Of a stretch of 64,000 nt of DNA, positions 29,501-58,000 are shown in pieces (the stretch's first letter is position 1; every line of letters starts with the position of its first letter). Source of the stretch: Christensenellales bacterium (GTDB lineage Bacteria; Bacillota; Clostridia; Christensenellales; UBA1242); contig JBJFDC010000006.1 in NCBI GenBank assembly GCA_051889215.1, forward strand, positions 5,669 to 69,668. The letters are read 5' to 3'. The notes under the pieces were generated by a model. It ran no database searches and was not told the DNA's origin. It saw only the letters and a list, made by a program, of their open reading frames with translations. The position numbers and the translations under genes are program-made.

Positions 29501-30125
29501 TTTCACATCGGACATGATTGCAAATCTTGAATCTGAAGATGATGGCGAAACGGTTGATGAAGACAATCAAATTGAGGGCGAAGATAAATTCCAAGACAAC
29601 GGGATTGTCGACAACATGCATGTGACCTGCGGCGGACTTGTTTCATCAATAAAAAAAGTCGTCACAAAAATGACCAACAAAGAAATGGGAATTCTGACAA
29701 TTGAAGATCTCTATGGTTCATTTGATTGCATGTTATTTGCAAACAACTATGCAAAATATAAACATAGTCTCAAAGAAGACCAATTCATCAAAATTGACGG
29801 GAAACTTTCTCTTCGTGAAGGGCAGAATCCAGTCATCATCGCAGAGAAAATCAGTTTTGCGACAAATGCTCCAGTGACGACTGATATTGTTGAAGAACAG
29901 CCAAAAGAGCAAAAATTATATTTAAAATTCAATGTGAATGACAAAAATGTTTATAACAAGGTCGAAGGAATTTTGTCATCATATCCGGGAACCAGTCAAA
30001 TTGTCGTCAAAGATGAGCCGTCGGGTTCGGTGTTTATGCTGAAAAATCGAAATGTCAAAATTAATGACGGACTTGTTAATGAACTTATTGGTGAACTTGG
30101 CGAAAAAAATGTTGTTGTGAGGTGA
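26541..30125 (+). CDS. dnaE: DNA polymerase III alpha subunit (DnaE type)
   Basis: 1194 aa. PHP N-terminus FVHLHLHTEYSLLDGA, polymerase core and a C-terminal OB fold. Confidence 0.95.
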   Translation: MEDFVHLHLHTEYSLLDGAARIGKVVKTAKDMGMRAIAITDHGNMYGTIALFDECNKVGDIKPIFGCEFYVADDLHQKSGKPKLRHLILLVKNEEGYKNICMLNTIAFRDGYYYKPRIDYKTLNQYRKGLICLSACLAGTLPQLLLSGQMEEADKFVENMKEMFGEDFYVEVQDHGLEDEKRVYPMLVDIARRHGVKTVATNDVHYINKEDSVVQDVLMCVQMQKTVDDPDRLKFETDEFYLKSGDQMAALFPDNPEAIKNTLEIADKCNFTFKDIDKNIYLFPQYHAPDGQDNYEFMRKMVFDGLAKKYPEVTQPIIDRAERELALIKRQGFVEYFLTVWDYINAARNMGVPVGPGRGSGAGSIVAYAIGITNIDPLKFDLLFERFLHEERVTAPDFDVDFADDRRGDVIEYVRQKYGEKRVVKIVTFGTMAAKNAIKDVGRVLRVPYSELDKVTKNIPNIPAKHHDVIKKCFGFYKSEQGEPNYAIPELVETYNSNPDIKKVVDIAMKLEGMPRQCSTHACGVVIGSDDLEKFMPLSRNGDDITTQYSMTDIERLGHLKMDFLGLRNLNDIQKAIEYIKQNHGVDVDFMKLGYDDPEVYKLISSGNTKAIFQIESAGFQKFLKQLRPTCIEDITAGVSLYRPGPMDSIPTYTHNKHHPEDVKYDHPILENILNVTYGCIVYQEQVMRICQDMAGYTLGQADMVRRMMGKKKVDAMKAEKQVFLYGKPAQNGKPAIDGAVKRGVPEDVAIKVWDQMEKFAQYAFNKSHAAAYSLITYQTAYLKCYYEPEFLTAVLNNRITNIDEIKNYVTYARSEGIEILPPDINKSMTGFSVRDGKIRFGLAALKNVGLGVIDSIIDERNRGGEFKDFMDFAKRVDPQALNKRCLESLILSGAFDCFGKFRSQLMQVYDMVVDRVAKDKKNRETGQFSLFDDPTLVSAVEFDEIQYPRIKEYNKEAFLKFEKEVVGIYISGSPLDDYIDEYKNFNFTSDMIANLESEDDGETVDEDNQIEGEDKFQDNGIVDNMHVTCGGLVSSIKKVVTKMTNKEMGILTIEDLYGSFDCMLFANNYAKYKHSLKEDQFIKIDGKLSLREGQNPVIIAEKISFATNAPVTTDIVEEQPKEQKLYLKFNVNDKNVYNKVEGILSSYPGTSQIVVKDEPSGSVFMLKNRNVKINDGLVNELIGELGEKNVVVR

Positions 30126-30127
30126 GT

Positions 30128-31072
30128 ATGAAAATTGGGATTTTGACAAGTGGCGGAGACGCCCCAGGAATGAACACGTGTGTGGCACGACTTGTGACAT
30201 CTCTTTGCAGAAAAGGGCATAAGGTTGTCGGAATTATGTTTGGTTATAAAGGGCTTTTGGAAGAGAACTTTATTCCACTCACGCAAGAGAGCGTGCAAAA
30301 CATCAGTTATTTGGGCGGCAGTTTCCTAAAAAGTTATCGCTGTCCCGAGTTTAAGTCCGAAGCGGGCGTAAAAAAAGCGGTCAAAGTTTTTAAAAAACAT
30401 AAATTTGATGCAGTCGTTGCCATTGGAGGAGATGGAACGCTCAAGGGCGTGAAAGAACTCAATGATGCCGGAGTCAATGTGACATTCATTCCTGCAACCA
30501 TTGACAATGATGTCATGATTTCAGAAAAAAGTTTGGGCTTTGACACCGCGATAAACAATGCAGTCTCGGCGATTGATATGATTGAGCAAACCATGGCAAC
30601 GATGGACAGAGGAATGGTTGTTGAAACAATGGGAAGAGATTGTTCGGACATTGCTGTTGCCTGCGGTCTTGCAGTGGGTGCAACAATGATTTTGACACCT
30701 GAAAGTGATTTAAATTTTGAACATATTTTGCAAAAACTCAACAAAAAACTCAATGCGGGCGACAAAACTCCGATAATTATTGTTCAAGAACACGTGCTTG
30801 AAATTGAAAAATTGGCCAAATATTTGGAGGAAAACACAAATATTGAGTTTAGGTCAATAAATCTTGGCTACATTCAAAGAGGTGGAGCGCCAACTGTTGC
30901 TGACAGAATTTTGGCGATAAAATTTGCAAAATGTGTGGTGGATAGTCTTGAGCGCGGTGAGAAAAACCGCTGTGCAAGCATTTTGAACGATGAGGCATGC
31001 GTCTTATCAATGAAAGTCATAACAAAAAATGCTCATAAATCTAGTCAATATCTCGTTGACTTTATTGATTGA
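30128..31072 (+). CDS. pfkA: ATP-dependent 6-phosphofructokinase
   Basis: IGILTSGGDAPGMN, GGDGT and TIDND motifs. The ATG follows GAGGTGA. An alternative GTG start lies at 30122. Confidence 0.92.
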   Translation: MKIGILTSGGDAPGMNTCVARLVTSLCRKGHKVVGIMFGYKGLLEENFIPLTQESVQNISYLGGSFLKSYRCPEFKSEAGVKKAVKVFKKHKFDAVVAIGGDGTLKGVKELNDAGVNVTFIPATIDNDVMISEKSLGFDTAINNAVSAIDMIEQTMATMDRGMVVETMGRDCSDIAVACGLAVGATMILTPESDLNFEHILQKLNKKLNAGDKTPIIIVQEHVLEIEKLAKYLEENTNIEFRSINLGYIQRGGAPTVADRILAIKFAKCVVDSLERGEKNRCASILNDEACVLSMKVITKNAHKSSQYLVDFID

Positions 31073-31120
31073 ATATGATATTGTAAAAAATGACCATATT
31101 TTTAAAAAAAGAGATGTGAG

Positions 31121-32269
31121 ATGAAAACAGATTTAAATATTGACGAACTTGGCGTCTATGAATTGAGAGAACTTGCAAGAAAATTGGGCGTAAAAAGTCC
31201 AACAACAAAAAAAATTGGGCAACTAAAAGAAGAAATCAAATTGATTCAAAGTGGACAAATGAAGGGGGTCAACACAAACAAAATTGGCAGACCACCAAAG
31301 TCTTTGACGCGTCAAGCGGGCGACATTTCTGCATTTTTTATTCCTCATGACATTTCTGCTTTGATTCACGAAGAATCAAAAGATTTGAGCGAGGAAGAAT
31401 TGAATTTGAAAAAGCTTATTTTCAAAACCAACGTTCAATCATTTGACGAAGAAGATTTTGCAAACGGATATTTGAGAAAAACCGATGCAAATCATTTCTA
31501 TTTTTGGTCTCAAAGCAGAAATTGTTTCAAAAAAGATTTATTGGTTTATGTGACCGATGCTTTTGCAGATGAATATGCGCTCAGAGTTGGCGATTTTGTT
31601 CAAACAAAAATTGAAAAATACGAAGAAAATAACTATGCCATTGCAAACAAAATTATTCGCGTTAATGGCGAGCAATATGAGGCGGGCAAGAGAATTGAAC
31701 CGGTTGACTTGGGAAAATTGAGTCTGCCAAATGTGGCAATGGACATTATGTTTGGAGAACAAATGAACAAGGGTGGCCGTGCGATTGCTGTGTTTGATGA
31801 CAGGGCACATATGTCAACCATAATTGACTATGCAAAAACACAAGCTGAAAAAGGTTTTCGCGTTGTTGTTTGTGGGTGTGAAACACCTCCAGAATTATTT
31901 TCTTGTGTGACAAATCCAAACATTGAACTTTTTATATCGAGATTTGGAGACGGACTAAAAGGTTCTTACAACACAATTATCAATGCACTAAATCACGCAC
32001 AATCACTTGCTTGCGACCATAAAGATGTTGTCGTAATCATGTATGACACAATGGGATTGCTTGAAACAATGAAAATGTATTTTGAATCCATTGGTCAACA
32101 TCAAGTGAACGGGACACAACTGACAAAGTCGATATTTGGAATGGGTGGCAACTTTGAAGGACTTGCATCAATTTCAACCATTGCTTGCATGTTGAAAAAC
32201 GAATATCATGAAGATTTTGTCAAAAAAGAGCTGGAGAGAGTTGCTTCTTGTGTTGTTGGCAACTATTAA
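31121..32269 (+). CDS. Rho-like protein with a degenerate ATPase domain
   Basis: Rho_N-like YELRELARKLGV and a CSD-like NGYLRK...LRVGDFV. The RecA-like region is alignable to Rho, but the P-loop APPKAGKT is replaced by FDDRAHMS and LLIDE by VCGCE. Confidence 0.6.
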   Translation: MKTDLNIDELGVYELRELARKLGVKSPTTKKIGQLKEEIKLIQSGQMKGVNTNKIGRPPKSLTRQAGDISAFFIPHDISALIHEESKDLSEEELNLKKLIFKTNVQSFDEEDFANGYLRKTDANHFYFWSQSRNCFKKDLLVYVTDAFADEYALRVGDFVQTKIEKYEENNYAIANKIIRVNGEQYEAGKRIEPVDLGKLSLPNVAMDIMFGEQMNKGGRAIAVFDDRAHMSTIIDYAKTQAEKGFRVVVCGCETPPELFSCVTNPNIELFISRFGDGLKGSYNTIINALNHAQSLACDHKDVVVIMYDTMGLLETMKMYFESIGQHQVNGTQLTKSIFGMGGNFEGLASISTIACMLKNEYHEDFVKKELERVASCVVGNY

Positions 32270-32362
32270 TTAATTGTTTTAATTAATTGACTTATTATTT
32301 ATTTATACTTAAAATAATGTTTATGATTTTTGAGTAAGTTCATACTTACAAATGGAGAGAAA

Positions 32363-33682
32363 ATGAAAAAGTTTATACCCGTTTTGGTCATGATGCTTTT
32401 TGCAACAATCGCGTTGTTTGCAGGTTGTTCTTCATCAACGCCAACACCAAATCAAAACGACCCAGTTTATGGCAATGGAGGACTTTCGGTCATCAAAGGT
32501 GATTATATCTATTATGTTAATGGATATGAAAGCAACGAAACAACAAAACAAACGCATGCAAACAAAGAGGGACAAGTTGAAGTTTCTTCAATTTATGTTG
32601 CAAAACTTCAAAATGGTGTTTTGACAGATAAAAAACAACTCGTTTCAAAAGTTGGCGGATTTGAATATTCCGACCTATATATTTTTGGAGATAGATTATA
32701 CTTTTTGTCGCCAAACACAAAAAAAGATGACACTGGTGAAATCAGGAGCGACATCATCACTCTTTGTTCAATCAAGTTTGATGGTTCAAAACTAACAGAA
32801 ATATTCACACCTGAACAATACTCTTCCGGGGCATTCTCAATGAAAGAAGTTGACGGCAAAATTTATGCTTTTGTTTATGATGGCTCAAAACTTTCTCAAA
32901 TTGAAATAAGCAACAAAAACAAAGTGACTGTTGTTGCAGAAGGTGTGACGAGTTTTGCAACATCACGAGACAAAACCTGCTATTCTGAAAATGCACAAAA
33001 AACACTCGACTCTTCGCTTGACGGATTTTTGTTTTACTCGCGTTCAAGAAATGAACAAGAAGGAAAGAATGAGGGCATTGGCGGAAACATTTTGGAAAAA
33101 TATGATATTGTTTCAGGTCAAAAAACAATCATTTCTTCAAATATAAACACAACAACTCAAGTCACAAATGTTGAGGGTGGAAGACTTTTCTACAAAAAAG
33201 GGGATTGTTATTATTCTTCAGACAGCAGTTTTTCAAGCGAACTTCGACATTCTTATGTTGCTGTTGACTCATTTATTCCACTTGGAAAAGGTGAAAGTGG
33301 CGAAGAACTTGGAGTCGTTGTGAAATACAATTCAAAATTCTATCTGCAAAAACTCACCGATTCGGTTATCCCAGCCGATGCTTTGAGTGACAAAGATTTG
33401 ACCATTATCTCACAAGACCAAGATGTGCTCATTGCAAAAGATGCAAATTCAAATATTTTGGCGATTTCAACAAAAGACAAGTCGGCAACCACAATATTCG
33501 AAAACACAGACGAACAAACTCTTGGCGACAAGTTTGATTATGATGGAAGATATTTGATAATGCTGGGAAGCGTAAAAGAATATAAATCAAATTATTCATT
33601 TTTGATTGACACATATGGGTCTGTTGGCGGGCAAACAGGTGCAACTCAAATTGGAACATTGATTGATTCAGACAAAGAATAG
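32363..33682 (+). CDS. lipoprotein with beta-propeller-like repeats (DUF5050-like)
   Basis: Signal peptide MKKFIPVLVMMLFATIALFAGC with a lipobox. YIYYVNG/LYF-type repeats recur along the protein. Confidence 0.5.
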   Translation: MKKFIPVLVMMLFATIALFAGCSSSTPTPNQNDPVYGNGGLSVIKGDYIYYVNGYESNETTKQTHANKEGQVEVSSIYVAKLQNGVLTDKKQLVSKVGGFEYSDLYIFGDRLYFLSPNTKKDDTGEIRSDIITLCSIKFDGSKLTEIFTPEQYSSGAFSMKEVDGKIYAFVYDGSKLSQIEISNKNKVTVVAEGVTSFATSRDKTCYSENAQKTLDSSLDGFLFYSRSRNEQEGKNEGIGGNILEKYDIVSGQKTIISSNINTTTQVTNVEGGRLFYKKGDCYYSSDSSFSSELRHSYVAVDSFIPLGKGESGEELGVVVKYNSKFYLQKLTDSVIPADALSDKDLTIISQDQDVLIAKDANSNILAISTKDKSATTIFENTDEQTLGDKFDYDGRYLIMLGSVKEYKSNYSFLIDTYGSVGGQTGATQIGTLIDSDKE

Positions 33683-33686
33683 AAAA

Positions 33687-33717
33687 CAAAACAACTCAAT
33701 AAAACGAGTTGTTTTTT
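33687..33717 (+). terminator. rho-independent terminator
   Basis: AAAACAACTC aataaaac GAGTTGTTTT followed by further T residues. Confidence 0.75.
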
Positions 33718-33794: not shown

Positions 33795-33912
33795 ATATTC
33801 TACACATATCACACAAATTTGGCAAAAGAGTAAAAAATAAAACAACCGATTTTATATTTTTTGGCACAAATTCGTGATATTCTTTCCTCGTAGAAAAAAC
33901 ATGGAGGAAAAA

Positions 33913-34680
33913 ATGGAAACAAAAAAACAAAAAGTAAAAATTTTGATTGCTGATGCGAGTGAGGAATCGAGGAATATGCTCGTGAATCATTTTTCAAAAT
34001 CTGACAGATTTGAAATTGTGGGTTCGTCAAGCGACGGCCAAGAAGTTCTGGACACAATTCTAAATAACAGTGTTGACGTTGTTGTGATGGACGTTGTCCT
34101 GACGGGGATTGACGGATTTGAAGTTTTGGAGGAGGCAAAAAAGCATGCCAACATCACATCAAAATTCATCATTGAATCAAACCTAACTCATGATGGATTT
34201 GTGACAAAAGCGACAATGCTGGGGGCGAACTATTTTATTGCCAAACCAATCAACTGCGCTGTCATTGAGAAAAGGGCTTTGGAACTTGTTGAGAACAAGA
34301 CACCACAAAGCAATGTAAACAAAATGGGCAGTCGCCAGCTTGAAGAAAAAATTTCCAACATCTTTATTACGGTTGGCATACCGGCTCACATAAAAGGTTA
34401 TCAGTTTTTGCGTGAGGCGATAAAACTCGCGATTGACAGTCCAGAAATCATAAATTCAATAACCAAAAAATTGTATCCGACCATTGCAGACAAATATTCA
34501 ACTTCTTCAAGCAAGGTTGAGCGCGCAATAAGACATGCGATTGAGGTTGCATGGAATCGGGGCAAGATTGAAAATATAAACTCAATTTTTGGTCTCAAAG
34601 TGTATAATTCCAACGAAAAACCAACCAACGGTGAGTTTATTGCTCTTGTCGCTGACAAAATGTTGATTGAAGGGGCATAA
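33913..34680 (+). CDS. spo0A: sporulation master regulator Spo0A
   Basis: Receiver domain (ILIAD...VVVMDVVLTGIDG...YFIAKP) plus the diagnostic Spo0A C-terminal domain (GIPAHIKGYQFLREAI...SKVERAIRHAIEVAW). GGAGG lies 5 nt before ATG 33913. Confidence 0.93.
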   Translation: METKKQKVKILIADASEESRNMLVNHFSKSDRFEIVGSSSDGQEVLDTILNNSVDVVVMDVVLTGIDGFEVLEEAKKHANITSKFIIESNLTHDGFVTKATMLGANYFIAKPINCAVIEKRALELVENKTPQSNVNKMGSRQLEEKISNIFITVGIPAHIKGYQFLREAIKLAIDSPEIINSITKKLYPTIADKYSTSSSKVERAIRHAIEVAWNRGKIENINSIFGLKVYNSNEKPTNGEFIALVADKMLIEGA

Positions 34681-34830
34681 ACACATTATTTTTGATGAAG
34701 TTTGAAAATATAAAAAACCTTTTTAAAAAAATTTTTATAACATATTAAAAATAGTTGCATATTATATTTAAAATTGATATTATCTCAACATAAAAACCAA
34801 TATAATAAAACATTTTTTAAAGAGGTGTTT

Positions 34831-35346
34831 ATGGCAGCAAAACCAGTATATGTCAGATGTCCAAGATGCGAACTCAACTACATCAAAAAAGGTGAAAAAC
34901 TTTGTTCGGTTTGCAAAAGCGAACTTGATGGAACAAGTGAACTTGACGAACTCGACCTCGAGTATTGCCCAGTTTGCAAAACAAACTATATTCAACCTGA
35001 CGAAATCATGTGTGCAACTTGCGCAAAAGAACGCTCTCTTGACTCAAATTTTCAAGGTGACGAATATGAGAATGACGAGTGGGACGAATATATCAATGCC
35101 AAAGACACAGACGGCTATGAAGAAGATGATGACGATGATCTCACTCAAGTTCATGATGCCGACGACGATGATGATTTGATGGGTTCGGACGATCTTCCTT
35201 TGGAACTTGAAGACGACTTTGATGAAGATTCTGACGAAGACGACGAAGAAGATGAAGACGAAGACGATGATGACTTGGAGTTTGACCCCGCAGACGATGA
35301 CGACCTTGACGAAGAAGATGAAGACGATGAAGATATCGATGACTAA
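34831..35346 (+). CDS. double zinc-ribbon protein with a ~100-aa polyacidic tail
   Basis: CPRC..17..CSVC and CPVC..14..CATC motifs, then a D/E-rich tail ending DEEDEDDEDIDD. RBS AGAGGTG. Confidence 0.6.
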   Translation: MAAKPVYVRCPRCELNYIKKGEKLCSVCKSELDGTSELDELDLEYCPVCKTNYIQPDEIMCATCAKERSLDSNFQGDEYENDEWDEYINAKDTDGYEEDDDDDLTQVHDADDDDDLMGSDDLPLELEDDFDEDSDEDDEEDEDEDDDDLEFDPADDDDLDEEDEDDEDIDD

Positions 35347-35418
35347 TTAATCCCGCAAAGGGATTTTTTAGTGTGTTTAAATCTCAACTTTTTTGGCAAA
35401 AATTGTTTGAGGTGAAAA

Positions 35419-35658
35419 ATGAAAAAAAATTTGTTATCGCTTTCAGAGGTGAAAGACCAAATCCTTGCACTAAAAGGCGAGAATGTGAAACTTACAATCA
35501 ATCGCGGAAGAAAAAGGATTGAAAAAATGGTGGCGACCATTGACTCTTGTTATCCAAGTGTATTCACAGTTAAAACAGATGAGACCCAAACAAACAGCAT
35601 ACAAACATTTTCATATTCAGATGTTTTGTGTGGCGATGTGAAAGTATCAACAAAATAA
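35419..35658 (+). CDS. veg: Veg (DUF1021) protein
   Basis: 79 aa. The LK..GE.V.LT.NRGRK and YPSVF motifs match B. subtilis Veg. Confidence 0.8.
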   Translation: MKKNLLSLSEVKDQILALKGENVKLTINRGRKRIEKMVATIDSCYPSVFTVKTDETQTNSIQTFSYSDVLCGDVKVSTK

Positions 35659-35734
35659 TTTTTAATTTTTGGTTCTAAAAACAAAAAATCCTCTATACAT
35701 TATTACAAAGTCAAATGTGTGGAGGGTTTTTATT

Positions 35735-37258
35735 GTGGCAGAAACAAACCAAAAAATTTCAGTCGTAAACAAAAGAATGCTTGGAAGCGTTCAAAATAAT
35801 ATTGAATGCAGAATTTCATCAATGGAACAAAAAGTTGTTGGCTTATTGATGTCGTCAGCAAAAGTCGAAGTGACGGGCTGCGAACCGCTTGTTAAAGAAG
35901 CCAATGTTTCGGGGAAAGTCATTATTGACATCTTATATAAGAGCGAAAATGACGAAATTGCTTCGGCAACCAGTGCTTTTGCTTTTTCGACCAAAGTTGA
36001 AGGGGATTTTGAGCCAAGCATCTACACGGTCGCGACAGCGGAAATTGAAGATTGTCAAATCGATGGCGTCAGTGAAGATGAGGTTAGATTTGTCGTCACT
36101 TCAACAATCAATGTTTTGGGTTATCCTCAAACCGAACTTGAAGTTGCAAGTTCCAACGATGACTGCTGTGTAAAAATGTCGCATAACAGTGCCACAAGAC
36201 TCACAAAGACCTCCAATCAAAAATTATCCGACACCTTGACATTTGATTTAAAAGACAAAATCAAAAAAGTGTTAAGAGTCGATGTTCAAACAATTTGCAA
36301 AGATGTTCAAGCGGGAAACGGTTATGTGTCACTTTGTGGCGAAGATTTGGTTGATGTTCTCTATGTTGAGGACGATGTTGAACCAAAACTAAAAAGCGCG
36401 TCATTCGTTCATCAATTTGGTGAAGAACTCGAGGTTGGAGGTGTCACAAAAGACAGTCTCATCGATCAGTTTATATCGCTAAATTACGATGGTGTCACAA
36501 ACACACTTGAACAAAATGAAGAGGGGACAAAAATTGTTGTAAATCGCGAGGCCAATGTCCAAATATGCGCTTTTGAGAAATTTGATTTTGAGACCATTGA
36601 AGATGTGTATTCATTAACTCACACAACACTTGTTTCAACAAACTCTTATGAATATCTCGCACCTCAAAAACAGATGTTTTTCCAAAATAAAATTGATGGC
36701 ACAGTGACGGCTGGAGACAACACTCCAAGAATTGACAAAGTGCTTGAAAACTCCGCCAACATGTTAAAAGTGGTTGCGTCCTATGTCCAAGACGATGAAA
36801 TTGTTATTCAAGGGACAATGCAGACAACAGTGCTATATCTCAATGATGAAAATTCAAGCATTGAGTCCATTGAAGTCGAAATCCCATATGAGGTCAAACA
36901 ACGCATTGAAGAAATTGATGGCGCAATGATTGATGTGAAGTGTGCAGTTGATAATGTCGATGTTGTTGCAAAACGAGGAAAAGACATTTTTGTTGAGGCA
37001 GAAGTCAAAACCTATGTTGGGGTATATTCAACTCAAACCGGTGCCGCAATCACCAAAGTTGAACTCCAAGATGAACTTCCACCAAAAACAGGTGCGATGG
37101 AAATATATTTTGCAACCGCAGGGCAAACACTTTGGGATATCGCGAAAGAAATGGTTGAAGATGTTGAGACTCTCGCCAAATTTAATCCCGAACTTCCTCA
37201 AGTCATGACGGGAGAAGAAAAAATTGTATGCTATAGAAAGAAAAGTATAAACTTTTAG
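35735..37258 (+). CDS. DUF3794 + C-terminal LysM protein, SipL-like spore-coat morphogenetic protein
   Basis: GTG start 8 nt after GGAGGG. C-terminal LysM (YFATAGQTLWDIAKEM...LAKFNPEL). Its size and position next to veg match clostridial sipL. Confidence 0.6.
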   Translation: MAETNQKISVVNKRMLGSVQNNIECRISSMEQKVVGLLMSSAKVEVTGCEPLVKEANVSGKVIIDILYKSENDEIASATSAFAFSTKVEGDFEPSIYTVATAEIEDCQIDGVSEDEVRFVVTSTINVLGYPQTELEVASSNDDCCVKMSHNSATRLTKTSNQKLSDTLTFDLKDKIKKVLRVDVQTICKDVQAGNGYVSLCGEDLVDVLYVEDDVEPKLKSASFVHQFGEELEVGGVTKDSLIDQFISLNYDGVTNTLEQNEEGTKIVVNREANVQICAFEKFDFETIEDVYSLTHTTLVSTNSYEYLAPQKQMFFQNKIDGTVTAGDNTPRIDKVLENSANMLKVVASYVQDDEIVIQGTMQTTVLYLNDENSSIESIEVEIPYEVKQRIEEIDGAMIDVKCAVDNVDVVAKRGKDIFVEAEVKTYVGVYSTQTGAAITKVELQDELPPKTGAMEIYFATAGQTLWDIAKEMVEDVETLAKFNPELPQVMTGEEKIVCYRKKSINF

Positions 37259-37340
37259 AGTATAAATAAAATAATAGAGTCAATAATCCTTCTTGAAAAA
37301 AGCTTGCCTTTTTGGCAAGCCAAAAGAGGGGTTATTTTTT

Positions 37341-37880
37341 ATGAGAAAAGTTGTTATTGCAGTGTTGATTGTTGTCATTGGGGTGACTTTTGTTTTGTTT
37401 TCAACAAAAAAGACCGAACCGAATGAAGAGTATTTGAGAATACATATTCGTGCCAATTCAAACCTTGATGTTGACCAAAATGTAAAATATATAATAAAGG
37501 ATAAAGTGGTTGAATATCTCATTCCAATCCTTTGCGACTGCGAAACAAAAGAACAGGCCGAGAGTGCTTTGCAAAAAAATTTTCAAGGAATTGAAGCGGT
37601 CGCCGACTCAATTCTCAAACAAAATGGTTTTTCTTATTCTTCTCATGCAAAACTTTGCAATGAATATTTTCCGACGAGAAGTTATCAAGACCTCACGCTT
37701 GACGAGGGCTTTTATGATGCGTTGATTTTGGAACTTGGACAAGCAAAGGGCGATAATTGGTGGTGTGTTGTATATCCTCCGTTATGTTTTGTGTCAACCA
37801 ACCCGACAGGAGAAGGAGTTGTGTATAAATCCAAAATTTTGCACATAATAAACAAAATTCTTGGTCGGGAGGAAACATGA
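37341..37880 (+). CDS. spoIIR: stage II sporulation protein R
   Basis: LRIHIRANSN...GDNWWCVVYPPLCF are diagnostic SpoIIR motifs. Confidence 0.9.
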   Translation: MRKVVIAVLIVVIGVTFVLFSTKKTEPNEEYLRIHIRANSNLDVDQNVKYIIKDKVVEYLIPILCDCETKEQAESALQKNFQGIEAVADSILKQNGFSYSSHAKLCNEYFPTRSYQDLTLDEGFYDALILELGQAKGDNWWCVVYPPLCFVSTNPTGEGVVYKSKILHIINKILGREET

Positions 37881-38545
37881 AAAGACGAAATAGTATTTTA
37901 TTTGCCGTGCTGCTGCTTTTTGCGGTGGTGTTGGTGGGTTGCATTGTCAGTGTTGACAATGTCAACAACAATAATATCAACACAATCAGTCAAGTTGCAA
38001 CAACCTCGCAAAACAAACAAATTCAACAAAAATTAAAGGATTTGGGATATTATTCTGGCGCAGTTGATGGAATTTATGGAAATGCAACAAGGAGTGCTGT
38101 TATTGCTTTTCAAAAGGCAAACGGTCTTGTTGCTGATGGAATTGCTGGACCAAAGACGATTGCAGCTCTTGGTCTCAATTTTAATTCTGCGACATCGAGC
38201 GACCTCTATCTCCTTGCAAAATGCGTTCATGCAGAGGCGAGAGGCGAGCCATATGTTGGACAAGTCGCAGTTGCTGCTGTGATTTTGAATCGTGTGAAAG
38301 ACCCCGCTTTTCCCAACACGATTTCGGGTGTAATCTATCAACCATGGGCTTTCACTGCGGTTAATGATGGGCAGATTAATTTGGAACCAAACTCAACCGC
38401 TTATCAGGCGGCGCAAGACGCGCTCAACGGTTGGGACCCGACCTATGGGTGCTTGTATTATTATAATCCAGCAACCGCCACAAGCAAGTGGATTTTCTCA
38501 AGGCAAACAGTTGTCACCATTGGCAAACACGTGTTTGCGATATAG
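37877..38545 (+). CDS. sleB: spore cortex-lytic enzyme SleB
   Basis: PG_binding_1 repeat (LGYYSGAVDGIYGNATRSAVIAFQKANGL) plus the Hydrolase_2 motif (AEARGEPYVGQVAVAAVILNR). The start overlaps the spoIIR stop. Confidence 0.88.
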   Translation: MKRRNSILFAVLLLFAVVLVGCIVSVDNVNNNNINTISQVATTSQNKQIQQKLKDLGYYSGAVDGIYGNATRSAVIAFQKANGLVADGIAGPKTIAALGLNFNSATSSDLYLLAKCVHAEARGEPYVGQVAVAAVILNRVKDPAFPNTISGVIYQPWAFTAVNDGQINLEPNSTAYQAAQDALNGWDPTYGCLYYYNPATATSKWIFSRQTVVTIGKHVFAI

Positions 38546-38554
38546 GAGGGGACA

Positions 38555-39916
38555 ATGGAAGCAAAAACACAAACAAGAACAAAAAAATCAACCACAATAG
38601 TTTTTATTGTGCTGACAGCAGTGTTTGCAGCCCTCATGATTGCGGCAGTTTTGGCATTATTCATCAACACAAACAAAATGAACGCATATGGGTCAAGCTT
38701 GGAATATGTTTATCAACGCTCCTACTATGACCTTGAAGACAACATCAATAATGCTGAAAACAAACTTTCAAAACTCATGGCGTCAAGTTCAGGCGACTAT
38801 CAGAAAAAACTTGTAAAAGAAATTTCCGCCAATGCCAAAGCGGCGCAAGAAAATCTTAACATCTTGCCGGTGTCGGCGGGCGGGATTAACGAATCAATCA
38901 AGTTTATTAATCAATTTTATGGATATATGTCATCTTTGGAAACATCGATTGAAAAAACGAACAAACTAACCCCAGAACAAAAACAAAAGGTCGGCGAACT
39001 CCATCAGGCGATAAAAGAAATCAAATTTAATCTTGAAAATTTCACAAAAAAACTTTCGGGCGGTTATTCAATTCTCAAAGCAAGCAAGAATTTTGAGGGA
39101 GATTTCAACAATCTCACAAATGACCTTCGTCAAGTCAAAACTGACGACATTGAATACCCTTCAATGATTTATGATGGACCTTTTTCGGATTCTGTGACAA
39201 ATGTTGAAATCAAAGGTCTTGTTGGAGAAAGCATTGATTCAATGACCGCGGAAAACAATTTGCGACAAATTTATAAGGACAAAAATCTTGAAAATTTGAA
39301 ATACCTTGGTCAAACAAATGGAAAATTCAAAACTCATGACTTTTCATTCTATCTTGAGGGCTCAAATCGAGTTGCGCAAATAACCGAAGTTGGTGGGCAC
39401 CTTCTCACATTGAGCGGGGGAATTGCAACAAAAACTTCAAACATTGATTTTGATCAAGCAAAAAATGCGGCACTTGACTTTGCAAAAAATTCAGATTTTG
39501 GAGAACTTGAAGTTGTTTGGAGTGACGAAAAAGATGGAGAAGCATATTTCAATCTTGCCCCAATTCAAAACGATGTTATTCTCTATCCCGATTTAATCAA
39601 GGTCAAAGTTGATAAATCCACAGGAAACATCGCGGGAATTGATGCGAGCGCATATTTCACAAATCACACAAATCGAACAATTGGAGCTGCAAAAATTTCA
39701 TCAAGTGAAGCAAAAAACACAATAGAAAATGGATATAACATTCAGACATCAAAGCTTTGCCTTGTGCCACTTGACTACAATCGCGAAGTTTTGTGCTATG
39801 AATTTAAATGCGACTATCTCGGTTCAATCTATTTCATTTATATAAATGCTGAAACCGGAGTGGAAGAGAACATTCTTCAAGTCGTTTCCTCCGAAAGTGG
39901 CCAAAAACTCATGTAA
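38555..39916 (+). CDS. ypeB: germination protein YpeB
   Basis: 453 aa with an N-terminal TM helix and PepSY-like C-terminal repeats, in the conserved sleB-ypeB operon position. Confidence 0.8.
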   Translation: MEAKTQTRTKKSTTIVFIVLTAVFAALMIAAVLALFINTNKMNAYGSSLEYVYQRSYYDLEDNINNAENKLSKLMASSSGDYQKKLVKEISANAKAAQENLNILPVSAGGINESIKFINQFYGYMSSLETSIEKTNKLTPEQKQKVGELHQAIKEIKFNLENFTKKLSGGYSILKASKNFEGDFNNLTNDLRQVKTDDIEYPSMIYDGPFSDSVTNVEIKGLVGESIDSMTAENNLRQIYKDKNLENLKYLGQTNGKFKTHDFSFYLEGSNRVAQITEVGGHLLTLSGGIATKTSNIDFDQAKNAALDFAKNSDFGELEVVWSDEKDGEAYFNLAPIQNDVILYPDLIKVKVDKSTGNIAGIDASAYFTNHTNRTIGAAKISSSEAKNTIENGYNIQTSKLCLVPLDYNREVLCYEFKCDYLGSIYFIYINAETGVEENILQVVSSESGQKLM

Positions 39917-54964: not shown

Positions 54965-55093
54965 AAAGTCGGCATTAATTATATATAATTAAATTAAATA
55001 TTTATGCAAATAATAATGTAAATAATTTGACAACAAAAGATTAAAAATTATAAAATTCTTCATATAGAACAAAACTTTGTAGGGGAGTTATTG

Positions 55094-58000
55094 ATGAAAA
55101 AGTTTTTTGCACTATTTGCTTTGATATTGATTGCGGTCATGCCGGTTTGTTTGGTTGGCTGCAAGAGTAAATATGACAACTTGTCGATTGAAATGGAGTC
55201 GAGTTATGAAATTGTGCTCGGCGAGAGTGAAAACGACTCAATCACAATTGAAGCAAAAGTGACGGGGAACAGTGATGAAAATGGTGGAAGATTGAGTTTT
55301 TCGCCGGATAATGACAAACTTGTCAAAATCTCCCAAGACTACAAAAATGGAATAAACTACATAACTCTCAAAGCACTTGCGCCTGGAAAAGTCAACATTG
55401 AAGCGAGAACACTTGAAGGTGGTGTGACAAAAAATTTTGTCGTCAACATAATTCAACCAATCAAAAACTTTTCTGTCAAATCTGGACAATTCACTGTTGT
55501 TCGTGGAGGGGAATGGAAGATTGATGTTGAGAAACATTTGAATCTTGAACCAACAAACACAACTCAAACTGATTTTGTTGTTTCTTTTGCGGCAAATCAA
55601 GACATCGAAGGAATTCAAATTGAAGACAATGTTTTGAAAGTGTCAAAAGATTCAAATCAAGACGAAATCGTTTTGAATGTTCAATCGTCGGCAAATTCCG
55701 ATATTGCGCCAAAAGAAATCAAACTCGTTGTCTTGAATGAGTTCGTTGAGATTGACAAGCAAACTCAATCAACTCAGTCGAAGTTTGATGATGGAGATAT
55801 TTTAGTTTTTGAAAAAAATGAATCAATGCTCACATATGACAAACTCGAAGAGCTCAACATAATTTCCAACTTAATTTCAGAAAGTGAAAAAGAAATTGTT
55901 GTCCGCGTTTATTCTTCAAGAGAAGTCGATGTAAACCATCAAAGCAACTCAAGACTTTCAATCAAAAAACTTTCGTCAATAAAGACATATCAAGCAAATG
56001 GACAAGTTGAATACACGGATTTTTTCTTCTCTGTTCGATTTGCTGACACTGTTTCTTCTGGAGCAAAAACAAGTTTGAGTTTTGTTGTGAGTTATGTTGG
56101 ATTTGATTTAAACAAACAACTCTTGCCGATTTCAGTTGCATATGAACTCGCGCCAAAAACAATTCTCGTCAACGATCAAGACGACTTGAATGAGTTCACT
56201 CTTTACAACTTTTATTCAATGGCAAAAAAAGGGCAGAAACTTCAATTTGGAGTTCTGCCAACTTCTGTTTCTCCAAACAACTCAAAAATGATGCTTCTCA
56301 ACAAAGATAATCTCGTTGATGCCTTCGAGTATCTTCAATTTTTCAGAAACAATGGCGAGGAATTGTTTGAGGGCGATGAAATAAATGTCAATGAAGTTAT
56401 TTATGCAAGAGCAAGAAGCGGCGTAAAAACTGGTTCTTTTGAAGTTTTGCTTCAGACAAAATTTGTTGACCCACAAACAAATGCTTCTCTTTCAAAAGTG
56501 TTGAAATTCAATGTTCTTTCTGGAATAACAGAAATGAGATTTGTTGATGACGAGCAAATCAATCTCCAACTCAATTCAACACAAAACTCTGCTGAAATCT
56601 TGCTTGACGTCAGCCCGGCAAATATTGATATAACAAAAATTCACGTTGAAGAAATTGACGGATTGTCTTTTTCGACAATGACGACAAAGTCTCAAACAGA
56701 AGAGGGCTTGACTCTTCGATTTGTCGCTTATGCCCAAAAGGTTGGGAACTACAAAATAAAGGTTTATTCTGAAAACGGAATTGAAATAACAAAACAAATC
56801 AAAGTAATCAACGCTCTTGAGAATGTCGTTTTGTCTGCGCCAAGCCCAAACGAAAATTCGGTTGTTGGAGACAGGCAAATTGTTGACGGTGAACTCAGGT
56901 CTGTTGCGGTGTCGCTGGGCGGTGCGATTGCTCTCGAAGAAAACATTTCGCCAAGTGATGCAAATTATCGCGTGGAATTTTCGTATTTCGAAACCGAAAG
57001 TTTTCCAGAGTTTGCTCTATCGAGTTATGATTATCCAAACTTGGTCACTTCAACATCTGTTGGAGTGTTGGACTATTCTCAACTTTTGGGATACAAAAAA
57101 ATTGTTGCTCTGAAGGTTGGATATTCTGTTGTTCGCGCAAAATATATTCCAGTTGGAATTGTTAATAATGAAGAAACTGAACTTGAGCCGATTTACAAGT
57201 ATTTTGTTGTTCAAGGATACAAGCCAATTCGTTCGGTTGTGATGTCGTCAAACTATGCAACCCTCTACTCTCTGAAAAGTGTTGGTATTTTCAACAAAGA
57301 TCTCACAATGACAAAAGTTCAACTTTCAGTTTTCCCAATTGATGCAACATATGCAAACAGCATTGTTTGGGATTATGACAAAAGTGGCGAATACTTTCAG
57401 TTCGACGAAGAAAATTTGATTGTTTACGCAACAAAACGCTATGCTGGAACAATTTCAATTCTTGCAACAATAAAAGAACTGAACAGAACTTATACTCAAA
57501 CTCTTTCAATAACAATTCTTGATGCAAAAACTGTCAGCGATATCAGTGTCAACGGCATCGGAGATAGCATCTATATTGAGAACACTGACGACACGACAAA
57601 GACATTTGTCATCAATGCTGTGGCTTTCCCAAACGATGCATATAACACAAAACTCAAATATGACTTTATTGACAAAGCGGGAAATATTATTGGCGACATC
57701 AAAATATCTGCTGATGGAGTCATGACAATTCCTGCTGGTGTTGGACTCAGCGGATATGTCAGAATTGCTGCTGAAGATTGTTTTCAAGAGAACTCTTTGA
57801 CGGGTGAGTATCAACCTGTCGGAATTGAGGGCAAAAACATCATTCTCATTCCAACAACCATTGCAAATGGAACGAGCAAAGACACAGCAATAAGAATCAA
57901 CTCAAAAGAAGAATTGCAAAATATTGACACAAAAAAGCACTACAAAATTTACTGTGACCTTGATGTCAGTGGAATCAGTTTTGATAACTTTTCTGGCGGA

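What the first reader, a model, noticed from the sequence alone, without database searches (positions are those of the whole stretch)
31121..32269. Rho-derived protein that keeps the RNA-binding half but has lost the ATPase motifs
The 382-aa product has a Rho_N-like helix-hairpin (YELRELARKLGVKSPTTKKIGQLKEEI) and a cold-shock-like primary RNA-binding region (NGYLRK...LLVYVTDAFADEYALRVGDFVQTKI, compared with GFGFLR...DIYVSPSQIRRFNLRTGD in E. coli Rho). Its C-terminal half aligns to the Rho RecA fold (KDVVVIMYDTMGLL against KDVIILLDSITRLA; GLASISTIACML against GGSLTIIATALI). However, Walker A APPKAGKT is FDDRAHMS, Walker B LLIDE is VCGCE, and the C-terminus is truncated. That makes it a likely pseudo-enzyme, either an RNA-binding Rho paralog or a very divergent Rho. 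It sits between pfkA and a lipoprotein gene.
Basis: partly seen in the sequence, partly recalled or inferred. Interest (0 to 1): 0.55.

Follow-up and report, generated by a model that had tools for sequence, protein, structure and literature searches.

The report
ATPase-dead descendant of termination factor Rho
This gene encodes a well-conserved protein that descends from the bacterial transcription terminator Rho but has lost everything needed to burn ATP, so it probably binds RNA or DNA without acting as a motor; it belongs to a large, unstudied family in uncultured spore-forming gut Clostridia.

Summary
The 382-aa ORF at 31121-32269 (+) is real, and its descent from Rho is confirmed three ways: family profile vs PDB (Rho, E=1.3e-18), HHalign (97.5%), and AlphaFold model vs PDB (top 50 hits all Rho, E~1e-16). 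It keeps Rho's domain order: N-terminal helix hairpin, OB RNA-binding domain, RecA-like core. It has no P-loop, no catalytic Glu or Arg valve, a shortened Q-loop, and no C-terminal subdomain or Arg finger. The true Walker B Asp (Rho D265) is retained as D309.

It is not a pseudogene: dN/dS is about 0.09 in all domains, and 225 clusters at 50% identity match at E≤1e-30.

The wider family shows graded motor decay. Bona fide Rho proteins of a related Clostridia clade share its signature head (SPTxKK…GRP) and sit at veg-sipL-spoIIR-sleB-ypeB-rho. P-loop-intact and P-loop-less Rho-like genes occupy that same slot in other lineages. The window protein is therefore most likely a decayed, repurposed Rho acting as an ATP-independent nucleic-acid binder.

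I could not test whether a canonical rho co-exists in the genome. No description of this family turned up in the literature searches.

The parts
31121..32269 (+). Rho-derived pseudo-ATPase gene (382 aa)
   Evidence: ORF. Family profile vs PDB Rho E=1.3e-18. HHalign 97.5%. Foldseek top 50 hits all Rho. dN/dS about 0.08-0.10.
31056..31084 (+). sigma-70-like promoter candidate (TTGACT-17-TATTGT, TG-extended) 37 nt upstream of the start codon, inside the 3' end of pfkA
   Evidence: Consensus scan and sequence. A consensus match only, not evidence of function.
31145..31240 (+). Rho_N-like helix-extended-helix head (aa 9-40), the most conserved part of the family
   Evidence: Invariant G11 Y13 E14 L15 R16 A19 R20 T28 T29 K30 L35 I39. 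Pfam Rho_N hit in 26/53 members and Fan1_SAP in 12/53.
31256..31315 (+). basic linker (aa 46-65) with invariant GRPPK (aa 56-60; nt 31286-31300), AT-hook-like, predicted disordered
   Evidence: GRPPK in 120/120 members. Net charge +5.0±1.1 across the family. pLDDT 48-57. GRP at the same place in 111/120 canonical Rho proteins of the related clade.
31316..31456 (+). low-confidence, acidic helical insertion between head and OB domain (aa 66-112)
   Evidence: pLDDT 41-73. Charge -8 in the window protein. Corresponds in position to the insertion region of 'Type 2' Rho (PMC11347177).
31457..31690 (+). OB/cold-shock-like domain homologous to the Rho primary RNA-binding site (aa 113-190)
   Evidence: Pfam Rho_RNA_bind in 33/53 members. 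Aligned to Rho 53-130. Aromatic PBS equivalents are present in the window protein: Y127=F64, Y143=Y80, Y172=Y110. Family frequencies are Y 116/120, Y/F 85/120 and Y/F 53/120.
31760..32266 (+). degenerate RecA-like core (aa 214-382) without nucleotide-binding motifs, ending near Rho residue ~345
   Evidence: HHalign and HMMER alignment to Rho 166-322. pLDDT >90. No ATP-synt_ab Pfam hit in any of 53 members. dN/dS 0.08-0.10.
31793..31813 (+). former Walker A site: FDDRAHM (aa 225-231) in place of APPKAGK, plus a 3-residue deletion
31874..31894 (+). GCETPPE (aa 252-258) in place of LIDERPE. Catalytic Glu211 and Arg valve R212 are not conserved.
   Evidence: Column frequencies: position 255 is L/I/V/T, position 256 is A/S/T/P.
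32027..32047 (+). retained Walker B strand VVVIMYD (aa 303-309); D309 = Rho D265
   Evidence: HHalign. D in 110/120 and N in 10/120.
32330..33682 (+). downstream lipoprotein-like gene (likely start ATG 32364 after GGAGAG), no Pfam family. Conserved partner in this sub-clade only.
   Evidence: Same order in relatives down to 48% identity.
33874..39916 (+). spo0A - Zn-ribbon/acidic protein - veg - sipL - spoIIR - sleB - ypeB sporulation cluster. In related lineages the canonical rho or the Rho-like gene sits at its 3' end.
   Evidence: Pfam of called genes. Comparison with L029, L030, L031, L046.

Best explanation
The gene encodes a functional, selectively maintained descendant of transcription termination factor Rho that can no longer bind or hydrolyse ATP.

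Shown:
- It has Rho's domain order and fold: helix-hairpin head, basic GRPPK linker, OB domain, RecA-like core.
- It lacks Walker A, the catalytic Glu and Arg valve, most of the Q-loop, and the whole C-terminal subdomain that carries the Arg finger.
- It is under strong purifying selection.
- It belongs to a large family confined to uncultured spore-forming Clostridia.
- Its signature head is shared with the bona fide Rho of a related clade.
- Canonical, half-decayed and fully decayed versions occupy the same chromosomal slot in different lineages.

Inferred:
- The family arose when a lineage's own GRP-headed rho was released from the motor function. The window clade is the most reduced form and has been relocated to the other side of the spo0A-ypeB cluster.
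- The protein works as an ATP-independent nucleic-acid binder. The invariant head plus the +5 GRPPK linker and the OB cleft (all three aromatic primary-site residues are kept in the window protein) capture single-stranded, probably pyrimidine-rich RNA, as the same elements do in Rho.
- The dead RecA-like core serves as an assembly or partner-binding platform rather than a translocase.

It therefore cannot terminate transcription by the canonical translocation mechanism. A passive role on nascent or free RNA (occupancy, protection, or recruitment to RNA polymerase or another partner) is the most likely activity.
For: Rho homology: E=1.3e-18; 97.5%; top 50 PDB matches all Rho; Rho_N 26/53, Rho_RNA_bind 33/53, Rho equivalog weakly 51/53.

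Motor loss. No GK[ST] at the Walker A site in 249/254 members. A [DEK]RP catalytic segment in only 13/254. A long C-terminal tail in only 18/254. The window protein ends 18 residues after the equivalent of Rho 330.

Functional constraint: dN/dS 0.08-0.10 in the head, OB and RecA-like parts. 225 clusters at 50% identity with E<=1e-30. Invariant residues.

Descent from a real Rho: P0287 and P0378 have a complete canonical motor, are named Rho by NCBI, carry the SPTxKK...GRP head, and lie at veg-sipL-spoIIR-sleB-ypeB-rho-mnmA. GRP is present in 111/120 of these, against 6/90 other canonical Rho proteins and 245/250 Rho-like proteins. P0257 (P-loop kept, E211K) and P0187 (P-loop lost, ERPED kept) sit in the same slot.

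Rate release: canonical Rho proteins are 70% identical where host YpeB proteins are 38%. Rho-like proteins are 23-30% identical where YpeB is 33-36%.

Nucleic-acid binding capacity: PBS aromatic residues retained. Linker charge +5.0±1.1, while the RecA-like core is -4.
Against: - No biochemical data exist for any member.
- RNA versus DNA cannot be decided. A HeH/SAP-like head plus a GRP motif is also a classic double-stranded-DNA-binding combination.
- PBS residues other than the F64 equivalent are only partly conserved across the family: the Y110 position is Cys in 62/120, and the E108 and R66 equivalents vary.
- Oligomeric state is unknown (monomer model only).
- Whether a canonical rho co-exists in the same genome was not testable. 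This leaves open a regulatory role on Rho itself.
- The retained Walker B Asp and the new near-invariant N288/N291 hint at a ligand or partner site that this model does not explain.
Confidence: 0.6

Rival explanations
1. It is an extra paralog that co-exists with a working Rho and modulates it. It could form mixed, poisoned rings, or compete for rut-like RNA, NusG or RNA polymerase, giving conditional (for example sporulation-linked) relief of Rho-dependent termination.
For: It keeps the Rho fold and probably part of the subunit interface. ATPase-defective Rho subunits are dominant-negative in E. coli (own knowledge). Clostridia include Rho-positive species (PMC13613805). A canonical rho at the standard rpmE-prmC-prfA locus exists in some gut Clostridia MAGs (P0285). 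The gene is linked to the spo0A-spoIIR-sleB-ypeB cluster.
Against: Canonical and decayed forms occupy the same slot, one copy per locus, in different lineages. That is the pattern expected for orthologous decay. No canonical rho lies in the 64-kb window or in about 550 kb of flanks of family members. The C-terminal subdomain, which forms much of the Rho ring interface and the ATP pocket, is missing. Sequence identity to any canonical Rho is only about 22-28%.
Confidence: 0.2
2. It has been repurposed as a DNA-binding chromosome-organisation, division or sporulation factor. The HeH/SAP-like head and AT-hook-like GRPPK would bind AT-rich double-stranded DNA, and the dead RecA core would multimerise.
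For: Fan1_SAP hits in 12/53 members. A GRP core flanked by basic residues resembles AT-hooks (own knowledge). The genome is AT-rich (about 38% GC). The gene is linked to the spo0A...ypeB sporulation cluster in four divergent lineages. In 13 loci of two sub-clades it is followed by a small membrane protein and a DivIVA-N-like coiled-coil protein, with FtsK/SpoIIIE nearby in one group.
Against: The same head and GRP motif occur in 111/120 bona fide Rho proteins of the related clade, where their expected substrate is RNA. The link to the sporulation cluster is shared by the canonical rho, so it can be inherited synteny rather than functional coupling. The DivIVA assignment is weak: no Pfam hit on direct scan. 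The neighbourhood varies between sub-clades.
Confidence: 0.15
3. It is still an active, very divergent Rho that binds nucleotide through a non-canonical site.
For: The Walker B Asp is kept in 110/120 members and the G218-x-R220 strand preceding the former P-loop is kept. The fold is preserved with high confidence.
Against: There is no phosphate-binding loop: a 3-residue deletion and acidic residues occupy its place. There is no catalytic Glu or Arg valve, no Arg finger or C-terminal subdomain, and the Q-loop is shortened. No ATP-synt_ab detection in 53/53 members.
Confidence: 0.03
4. It is a decaying remnant (pseudogene in progress) with no function.
For: Progressive loss of motifs across the superfamily.
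Against: dN/dS is 0.08-0.10 in every domain. Full-length conservation spans identities from 79% down to 22%, with invariant residues. There are 225 distinct 50%-identity clusters. Gene order is stable down to 48% identity.
Confidence: 0.02

Closest known systems
Canonical transcription termination factor Rho (E. coli Rho; TIGR00767 / NF006886), and specifically the GRP-headed Rho of uncultured Clostridia (P0287, P0378)
   Same: Same domain order and folds (Rho_N hairpin, OB primary RNA-binding domain, RecA-like core). Same SPTxKK...GRP head as the Clostridial clade. Same chromosomal neighbourhood in related lineages. Walker B Asp and PBS aromatic residues retained.
   Different: No Walker A, no catalytic Glu or Arg valve, shortened Q-loop, no conserved R-loop Lys, and no C-terminal subdomain or Arg finger. 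Scores 25 bits against a 315-bit cut-off. Evolves several-fold faster. Cannot be an ATP-driven translocase.
'Rho-like' sequences as operationally defined in the 2024 survey of Rho diversity (PMC11347177): proteins in which only the N-terminal and/or RNA-binding domains are detected
   Same: HMM-based surveys would place this protein in that bin: Rho_N and Rho_RNA_bind are detectable and the ATPase is not.
   Different: That category is heterogeneous and was set aside to the paper's supplement without analysis. Here the 'missing' ATPase domain is shown to be present as a degenerate RecA-like core, and an evolutionary series back to a real Rho is traced.
Rho_N-only proteins: cyanobacterial DUF4912 'Rho-like' proteins and plant chloroplast RHON1 (PMC13613805, PMC12642595)
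   Same: They share the Rho_N helix hairpin. RHON1 is reported to bind RNA through it.
   Different: Those proteins lack the OB domain and the RecA-like core, and share no overall architecture with this family.
Short-form / 'Group B' / Type 4 Rho paralogs (NF041509 paralog_Rho2)
   Same: Non-standard Rho relatives found alongside or instead of typical Rho.
   Different: Those lack the N-terminal domain but keep an intact ATPase, which is the opposite pattern. The window protein matches NF041509 only at E=0.2.

Membership tests
Transcription termination factor Rho (functional, canonical) | N-terminal Rho_N helix-hairpin domain | tested here: met
   NCBIfam Rho alignment starts at residue 7. Pfam Rho_N in 26/53 family members. 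Helices 12-22 and 32-43 in the model.
Transcription termination factor Rho (functional, canonical) | OB-fold primary RNA-binding domain with aromatic pyrimidine-binding residues (F64, Y80, Y110) | tested here: met
   Rho_RNA_bind in 33/53 members. The window protein has Y127, Y143 and Y172 at these positions. Family-wide only the F64 equivalent is near-invariant.
Transcription termination factor Rho (functional, canonical) | RecA-type core fold | tested here: met
   Foldseek top 50 PDB matches are all Rho, TM 0.5-0.6. HHalign over Rho 77-322.
Transcription termination factor Rho (functional, canonical) | Walker A P-loop (PPKAGKT, K181/K184/T185) | tested here: not met
   FDDRAHM plus a 3-residue deletion. 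0/120 close members and 5/254 superfamily members have GK[ST] at this site.
Transcription termination factor Rho (functional, canonical) | Catalytic Glu211 and Arg valve R212 (IDERPEE) | tested here: not met
   GCETPPE. No Arg at or next to the R212 position. Columns are L/I/V/T and A/S/T/P.
Transcription termination factor Rho (functional, canonical) | Walker B Asp265 | tested here: met
   D309 aligns with D265. D in 110/120 and N in 10/120.
Transcription termination factor Rho (functional, canonical) | Q-loop and R-loop secondary RNA-binding site (T286, K326) | tested here: not met
   The Q-loop region is several residues shorter than in E. coli Rho and the canonical Clostridial Rho proteins and is not conserved. 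The R-loop Lys is not conserved.
Transcription termination factor Rho (functional, canonical) | C-terminal subdomain with Arg finger R366 | tested here: not met
   The protein ends about 18 residues after the equivalent of Rho 330, against 90 in E. coli. Longer relatives keep this subdomain.
Transcription termination factor Rho (functional, canonical) | Passes curated equivalog score (NF006886 315 bits; TIGR00767 509 bits) | tested here: not met
   25.4 and 15.8 bits.
Transcription termination factor Rho (functional, canonical) | Homohexameric ring | not testable with these tools
   Only monomer prediction is available and no coordinates are exposed.
'Rho-like' sequences sensu PMC11347177 | Rho N-terminal and/or RNA-binding domain detected, ATPase domain not detected by HMM | tested here: met
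   No PF00006 hit in any of 53 members.
Short-form Rho paralog (NF041509) | Lacks the N-terminal domain, intact ATPase, passes the 628-bit cut-off | tested here: not met
   E=0.2, 10.9 bits. The N-terminal domain is present and the ATPase motifs are absent.
AT-hook-type minor-groove binding motif | GRP core flanked by basic residues in a disordered segment | tested here: met
   K-I-G-R-P-P-K in the window protein. GRPPK invariant in 120/120 members. Linker charge +5. pLDDT about 50. This is pattern resemblance only.
AT-hook-type minor-groove binding motif | Binds the minor groove of AT-rich DNA | not testable with these tools
   Needs binding assays. The motif also occurs in 111/120 bona fide Rho proteins of the related clade, where RNA is the expected ligand.

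The most novel reading that the evidence does not exclude
A whole clade of spore-forming gut Clostridia has converted its only rho gene, in place, into an ATPase-dead protein. It passed through P-loop-intact, hydrolysis-impaired 'switch' intermediates. The product is kept under strong selection for a new ATP-independent job that depends on an ultra-conserved head. On this reading these bacteria are functionally Rho-negative, yet still depend on a Rho-derived nucleic-acid-binding assembly.
Probability: 0.35. Interest if true: 0.8.

Novelty: new variant of a known kind. Interest (0 to 1): 0.6.

Why it matters
Rho is regarded as one of the most conserved bacterial motors. Surveys classify genomes simply as Rho-positive or Rho-negative according to whether the ATPase domain is detected.

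This family shows a third state: a Rho scaffold that is retained and strongly constrained after the motor has been dismantled, with living intermediates at the same locus.

It offers three things:
1. A natural experiment on which Rho functions are separable from ATP-driven translocation, such as RNA capture or partner and RNA polymerase binding.
2. A correction to Rho presence/absence calls in Clostridia.
3. A candidate new RNA- or DNA-binding factor in abundant but uncultured gut spore-formers.

Tried and rejected
- **Single-sequence PDB search** found nothing. A family profile was needed.
- **BFVD viral fold search** gave only weak generic RecA/AAA matches. PADLOC and PHROGs gave no hits. 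A phage or defence origin is rejected.
- **Rfam on the window** found only one tRNA. Nothing RNA-based is associated with the gene.
- **Canonical rho in the window and fetched flanks:** tblastn of E. coli Rho found none apart from the Rho-like genes themselves. This says nothing about the rest of the genome.
- **Co-occurrence test by contig-length 'fingerprints':** I compared the contig lengths of canonical Rho clusters with those of X-bearing contigs. No match, so inconclusive.
- **Supplement of PMC11347177**, which describes 'Rho-like' sequences, is not held.
- **Literature search for assembly GCA_002919055.1** found nothing. Searches for a described ATPase-less Rho homolog found none.
- **Synteny with dnaE-pfkA as a functional clue:** rejected. 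It holds only in the window sub-clade, down to 48% identity.
- **'DivIVA' identity of the recurrent downstream gene:** could not be confirmed by direct Pfam scan.
Full report
**1. The observation.**
The window holds an ATG-initiated 382-codon ORF at 31121..32269 on the + strand. Upstream is a phosphofructokinase gene (30122..31072; PFK Pfam hit on the orthologous product). Downstream is a gene whose product begins with a lipoprotein-type signal (MKKFIPVLVMMLFATIALFAGCSSS; likely start 32364 after GGAGAG). The wider region is an ordinary chromosomal stretch of a spore-forming Clostridium-class organism. It reads uvrB, uvrA, comEC, holA, gpr, uvrC, murB, whiA, dnaE, pfkA, X, lipoprotein, spo0A, a Zn-ribbon/acidic protein, veg, sipL, spoIIR, sleB, ypeB, pth, mfd. 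A 99%-identical copy lies in MAG GCA_964315195.1.

**2. Is it Rho-related?**
The single sequence is only marginally recognised. Pfam Rho_RNA_bind gives E=1.3e-3, below cut-off. The NCBIfam Rho equivalog gives E=5.7e-6, 25 bits against a 315-bit cut-off, covering only profile positions 6-131. The PDB sequence search found nothing.

A database search returned 135 full-length homologs of 346-412 aa, none named. A 53-sequence alignment (A1) turned the signal decisive:
- The profile hits solved Rho structures at E=1.3e-18 (Thermus) and 2.5e-14 (E. coli), over Rho residues about 53-331. That covers both the OB domain and most of the RecA-like domain.
- HHalign against E. coli Rho gives 97.5% probability.
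- The AlphaFold2 model is confident (mean pLDDT 82, C-terminal half >90).
- The model's 50 best PDB matches are all Rho chains, with E down to 1e-16 and TM 0.5-0.6.

Across the alignment, 51/53 members weakly hit the Rho equivalog, 33/53 hit Rho_RNA_bind, 26/53 hit Rho_N, and none hits an ATPase-domain model.

**3. What is lost and what is kept.**
I used E. coli numbering. The sequence was recalled from memory and then checked, and it reproduces F62, F64, R66, Y80, E108, Y110, K181, K184, T185, E211, R212, D265, T286, K326 and R366. The roles of these residues are established knowledge and are summarised in PMC11347177.

| Rho feature | Window protein | Family-wide |
|---|---|---|
| Walker A, APPKAGKT | FDDRAHM plus a 3-residue deletion | No GK[ST] here in any of 120 close members; the segment is a short, mostly acidic turn |
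| Catalytic Glu211 / Arg valve R212, LIDERPE | GCETPPE; neither residue conserved | Not conserved |
| Q-loop | Several residues shorter | Not conserved |
| R-loop Lys | Not conserved | Not conserved |
| C-terminal subdomain with Arg finger R366 | Absent; ends about 18 residues after the equivalent of Rho 330 | Short in 236/254 |
| Walker B Asp265, VIILLD | D309 | D in 110/120 |
| G171-x-R173 strand before the P-loop | Kept | Kept |
| PBS aromatics F64 / Y80 / Y110 | Y127 / Y143 / Y172 | Only the first is near-invariant |

That is a mislabel, since LLIDE carries the catalytic Glu and the Arg valve. The true Walker B Asp is retained.

The strongest conservation lies in the N-terminal head:
- Residues G11, Y13, E14, L15, R16, A19, R20, T28, T29, K30, L35 and I39 are invariant.
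- A GRPPK motif at residues 56-60 is invariant.
- GRPPK sits in a predicted-disordered 20-residue linker whose net charge is +5.0±1.1 across the family.
- The RecA-like core is mildly acidic, -4 against +1 in E. coli.

**4. It is a working gene.**
Against the 79%-identical orthologs (L005, L006), dN/dS is 0.08-0.10 overall. It is 0.11, 0.04-0.06 and 0.08-0.10 for the head, the OB domain and the degenerate core respectively. dS is near saturation, so these ratios are approximate. An exhaustive profile search of 1.84 billion representatives finds 225 clusters at 50% identity with E≤1e-30. A decaying pseudogene is excluded.

**5. Distribution and annotation status.**
In 185,579 species-representative genomes, the head motif G[VI]YELRELA found 20 loci. 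All are in uncultured gut Clostridia/Firmicutes MAGs, some labelled Christensenella, Catabacter or Lachnospiraceae. The pattern is narrow, so this is a lower bound. Where a source gives a name, it is 'hypothetical protein' or 'Rho termination factor N-terminal domain-containing protein'. There are no PADLOC or PHROGs matches and no specific viral fold match.

**6. A graded series back to a real Rho.**
The top representatives include longer proteins of 445-493 aa. They have the same head but retain more of the motor:
- Several keep IDERPED and the C-terminal subdomain, with an Arg at the finger position (for example SCTARKELLL, SFTMRAELLL), but have no P-loop. P0182, P0187, P0201 and P0214 are examples.
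- A group around P0257/P0247 keeps a genuine Walker A (GxKGSGK[ST]), a hhhhDD Walker B and a confident ATP-synt_ab Pfam hit, but has LDKRPED (Glu211→Lys).
- Within that group only 11 of 29 clusters keep Walker A.

Of 254 superfamily members, 5 have GK[ST] at the Walker A site, 13 have a [DEK]RP catalytic segment, and 18 have the long C-terminus.

The search with P0257 showed a sharp gap, from E≤1e-60 to about 1e-30, before canonical Rho proteins appear. Among the best canonical hits, P0287 has a complete canonical motor (AAPKTGKT, LLIDERPEEV, ILLDSITRL, SGRTMTGGLD, DTGSKMDD, SGTRREEML). Yet it carries the family's head (GVKSPTSKKKEEL…KKGRPA). NCBI names its relatives 'transcription termination factor Rho [Clostridia bacterium]'. 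GRP at residues 36-100 occurs in:
- 111/120 of these canonical Rho proteins,
- 6/90 of other canonical Rho proteins,
- 245/250 of the Rho-like superfamily.

The head of the window protein is therefore inherited from a functional Rho lineage.

**7. Positional evidence.**

| Locus | Protein | Motor state | Gene order |
|---|---|---|---|
| L046 | P0378 | Canonical Rho | veg-sipL-(GHMP kinase)-spoIIR-sleB-ypeB-rho-mnmA |
| L031 | P0287 | Canonical Rho | sleB-(71 aa)-ypeB-rho-mnmA |
| L030 | P0257 | P-loop intact, E211K | veg-sipL-spoIIR-sleB-ypeB-[Rho-like] |
| L029 | P0187 | P-loop lost, ERPED kept | spo0A-…-veg-sipL-spoIIR-sleB-ypeB-[Rho-like] |
| L024 | 333-aa relative | More divergent | directly after spoIIR, before greA |
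| Window | X | All lost, truncated | X-lipoprotein-spo0A-…-sleB-ypeB |

In the window the same cluster is intact at 33874..39916, but the gene lies at its other end. That order is stable down to 48% identity. In more distant short-form members the neighbourhood differs: fba-hpf-X, or Zn-peptidase-X, often followed by a 171-aa membrane protein and a DivIVA-N-like coiled-coil protein.

Each locus has one copy. This is the pattern of orthologous decay in situ, not of an added paralog.

Host-marker comparison supports a rate release:
- The two canonical Rho proteins are 70% identical, while their hosts' YpeB and SleB are 38% and 67% identical.
- The Rho-like proteins of window, L029 and L030 are 23-30% identical, while YpeB and SleB are 33-36% and 52-65% identical.

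**8. What could not be settled.**
I could not test whether the window genome, or any genome carrying the family, also has a canonical rho elsewhere. One candidate site is the standard rplJL…rho-rpmE-prmC-prfA locus seen for P0285. No rho lies in the window or in about 550 kb of fetched flanks. Contig-length fingerprinting gave no match. The literature states that Clostridia contains both Rho-positive and Rho-negative species (PMC13613805) and that 30% of Bacillota lack functional Rho (PMC11347177). Both outcomes are therefore plausible.

**9. Mechanism.**
*Shown:* this is a Rho-fold protein without nucleotide-binding or hydrolysis determinants and without the secondary RNA-binding loops. It keeps a conserved, basic, disordered GRPPK linker, an ultra-conserved helix-hairpin head and an OB domain whose primary-site aromatic residues remain in this protein.

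*Inferred:*
- It cannot translocate, so it cannot terminate transcription by the canonical mechanism.
- Its head and OB module most likely still capture single-stranded nucleic acid. RNA is favoured because the same head serves bona fide Rho factors.
- The dead RecA-like core acts as an assembly or partner platform.

The rivals are a modulator of a co-resident Rho, a DNA-binding sporulation or division factor, a cryptically active Rho, and a pseudogene. I rate them at 0.2, 0.15, 0.03 and 0.02.

**10. Comparison with what is known, and novelty.**
It fails membership of functional Rho on five defining features that were tested: Walker A, the catalytic Glu and Arg valve, the Q/R loops, the Arg finger and its subdomain, and the curated score. 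It passes on domain order, folds and Walker B. Operationally it falls into the unanalysed 'Rho-like' bin of PMC11347177. It differs from the Rho_N-only proteins (DUF4912, RHON1) and from the short-form Rho paralogs, which keep the ATPase and lose the N-terminal domain.

My literature searches found no description of a P-loop-less Rho with the full architecture or of this family. I classify it as a new variant of a known kind. Interest is 0.6. That would rise to about 0.8 if these genomes prove to lack any canonical rho.

Noticed in passing
window 55091..64000 (+), runs off the window end: Giant ORF of at least 2,990 aa with a lipoprotein-type signal (MKKFFALFALILIAVMPVCLVGCKS) and no closed end in the window. 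Giant no-Pfam ORFs (2,488-3,543 aa) also flank Rho-like genes in L027, L028, L029 and L030.
   Followed up: partly
L007-L017, L021, L026 (e.g. L007 11137-11652 and 11649-12443): In 13 loci of two sub-clades with different upstream context, the Rho-like gene is followed by a ~171-aa membrane protein and a ~264-aa coiled-coil protein. The gene caller missed the membrane protein in L025 and L026. The coiled-coil protein has a DivIVA-N-like start (FSKQKNGFNENEVNQYI), but Pfam support is only weak.
   Followed up: partly
L024 9962-10963 and 11346-11813: A 333-aa, more divergent relative with the same HeH + GRPAK head and an OB-like middle. It lies directly after spoIIR and is followed by a confident greA.
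   Followed up: partly
window 34774..35346 (+): 190-aa protein with a double zinc ribbon and an extreme poly-Asp/Glu C-terminal tail, located between spo0A and veg. A gene of similar size occupies the same slot in L024 (tblastn match), L029 and L048.
   Followed up: partly
L029 11469-21202; L030 12539-21383: Next to the Rho-like gene on the opposite strand lie a giant ORF (2,488 or 2,804 aa) and then a TraG/VirD4-type coupling protein (T4SS-DNA_transf, TrwB_AAD_bind). This may be an integrated conjugative element or a secretion-related module bordering the ancestral rho slot.
   Followed up: no
proteins P0391, P0404, P0453: Canonical Rho proteins that cluster with uncultured Clostridia Rho are labelled 'MAG... 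[Corallococcus sp.]' by NCBI. These are probably taxonomic mis-assignments of the MAGs.
   Followed up: no
window 33688..33715: Bidirectional terminator-like hairpin (AAAACAACTC…GAGTTGTTTT with T-runs on both sides) after the lipoprotein gene. It is the only clean intrinsic terminator between dnaE and spo0A, so pfkA, X and the lipoprotein gene may share read-through transcripts despite internal promoter-like sites.
   Followed up: partly
window 30122..30125: The longest ORF for pfkA (GTG at 30122) overlaps the dnaE stop codon by 4 nt. The gene caller places the pfkA start 6 nt downstream on the orthologous contigs. Either way this is a tightly packed dnaE-pfkA pair, conserved in L001-L006 and L048.
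   Followed up: no
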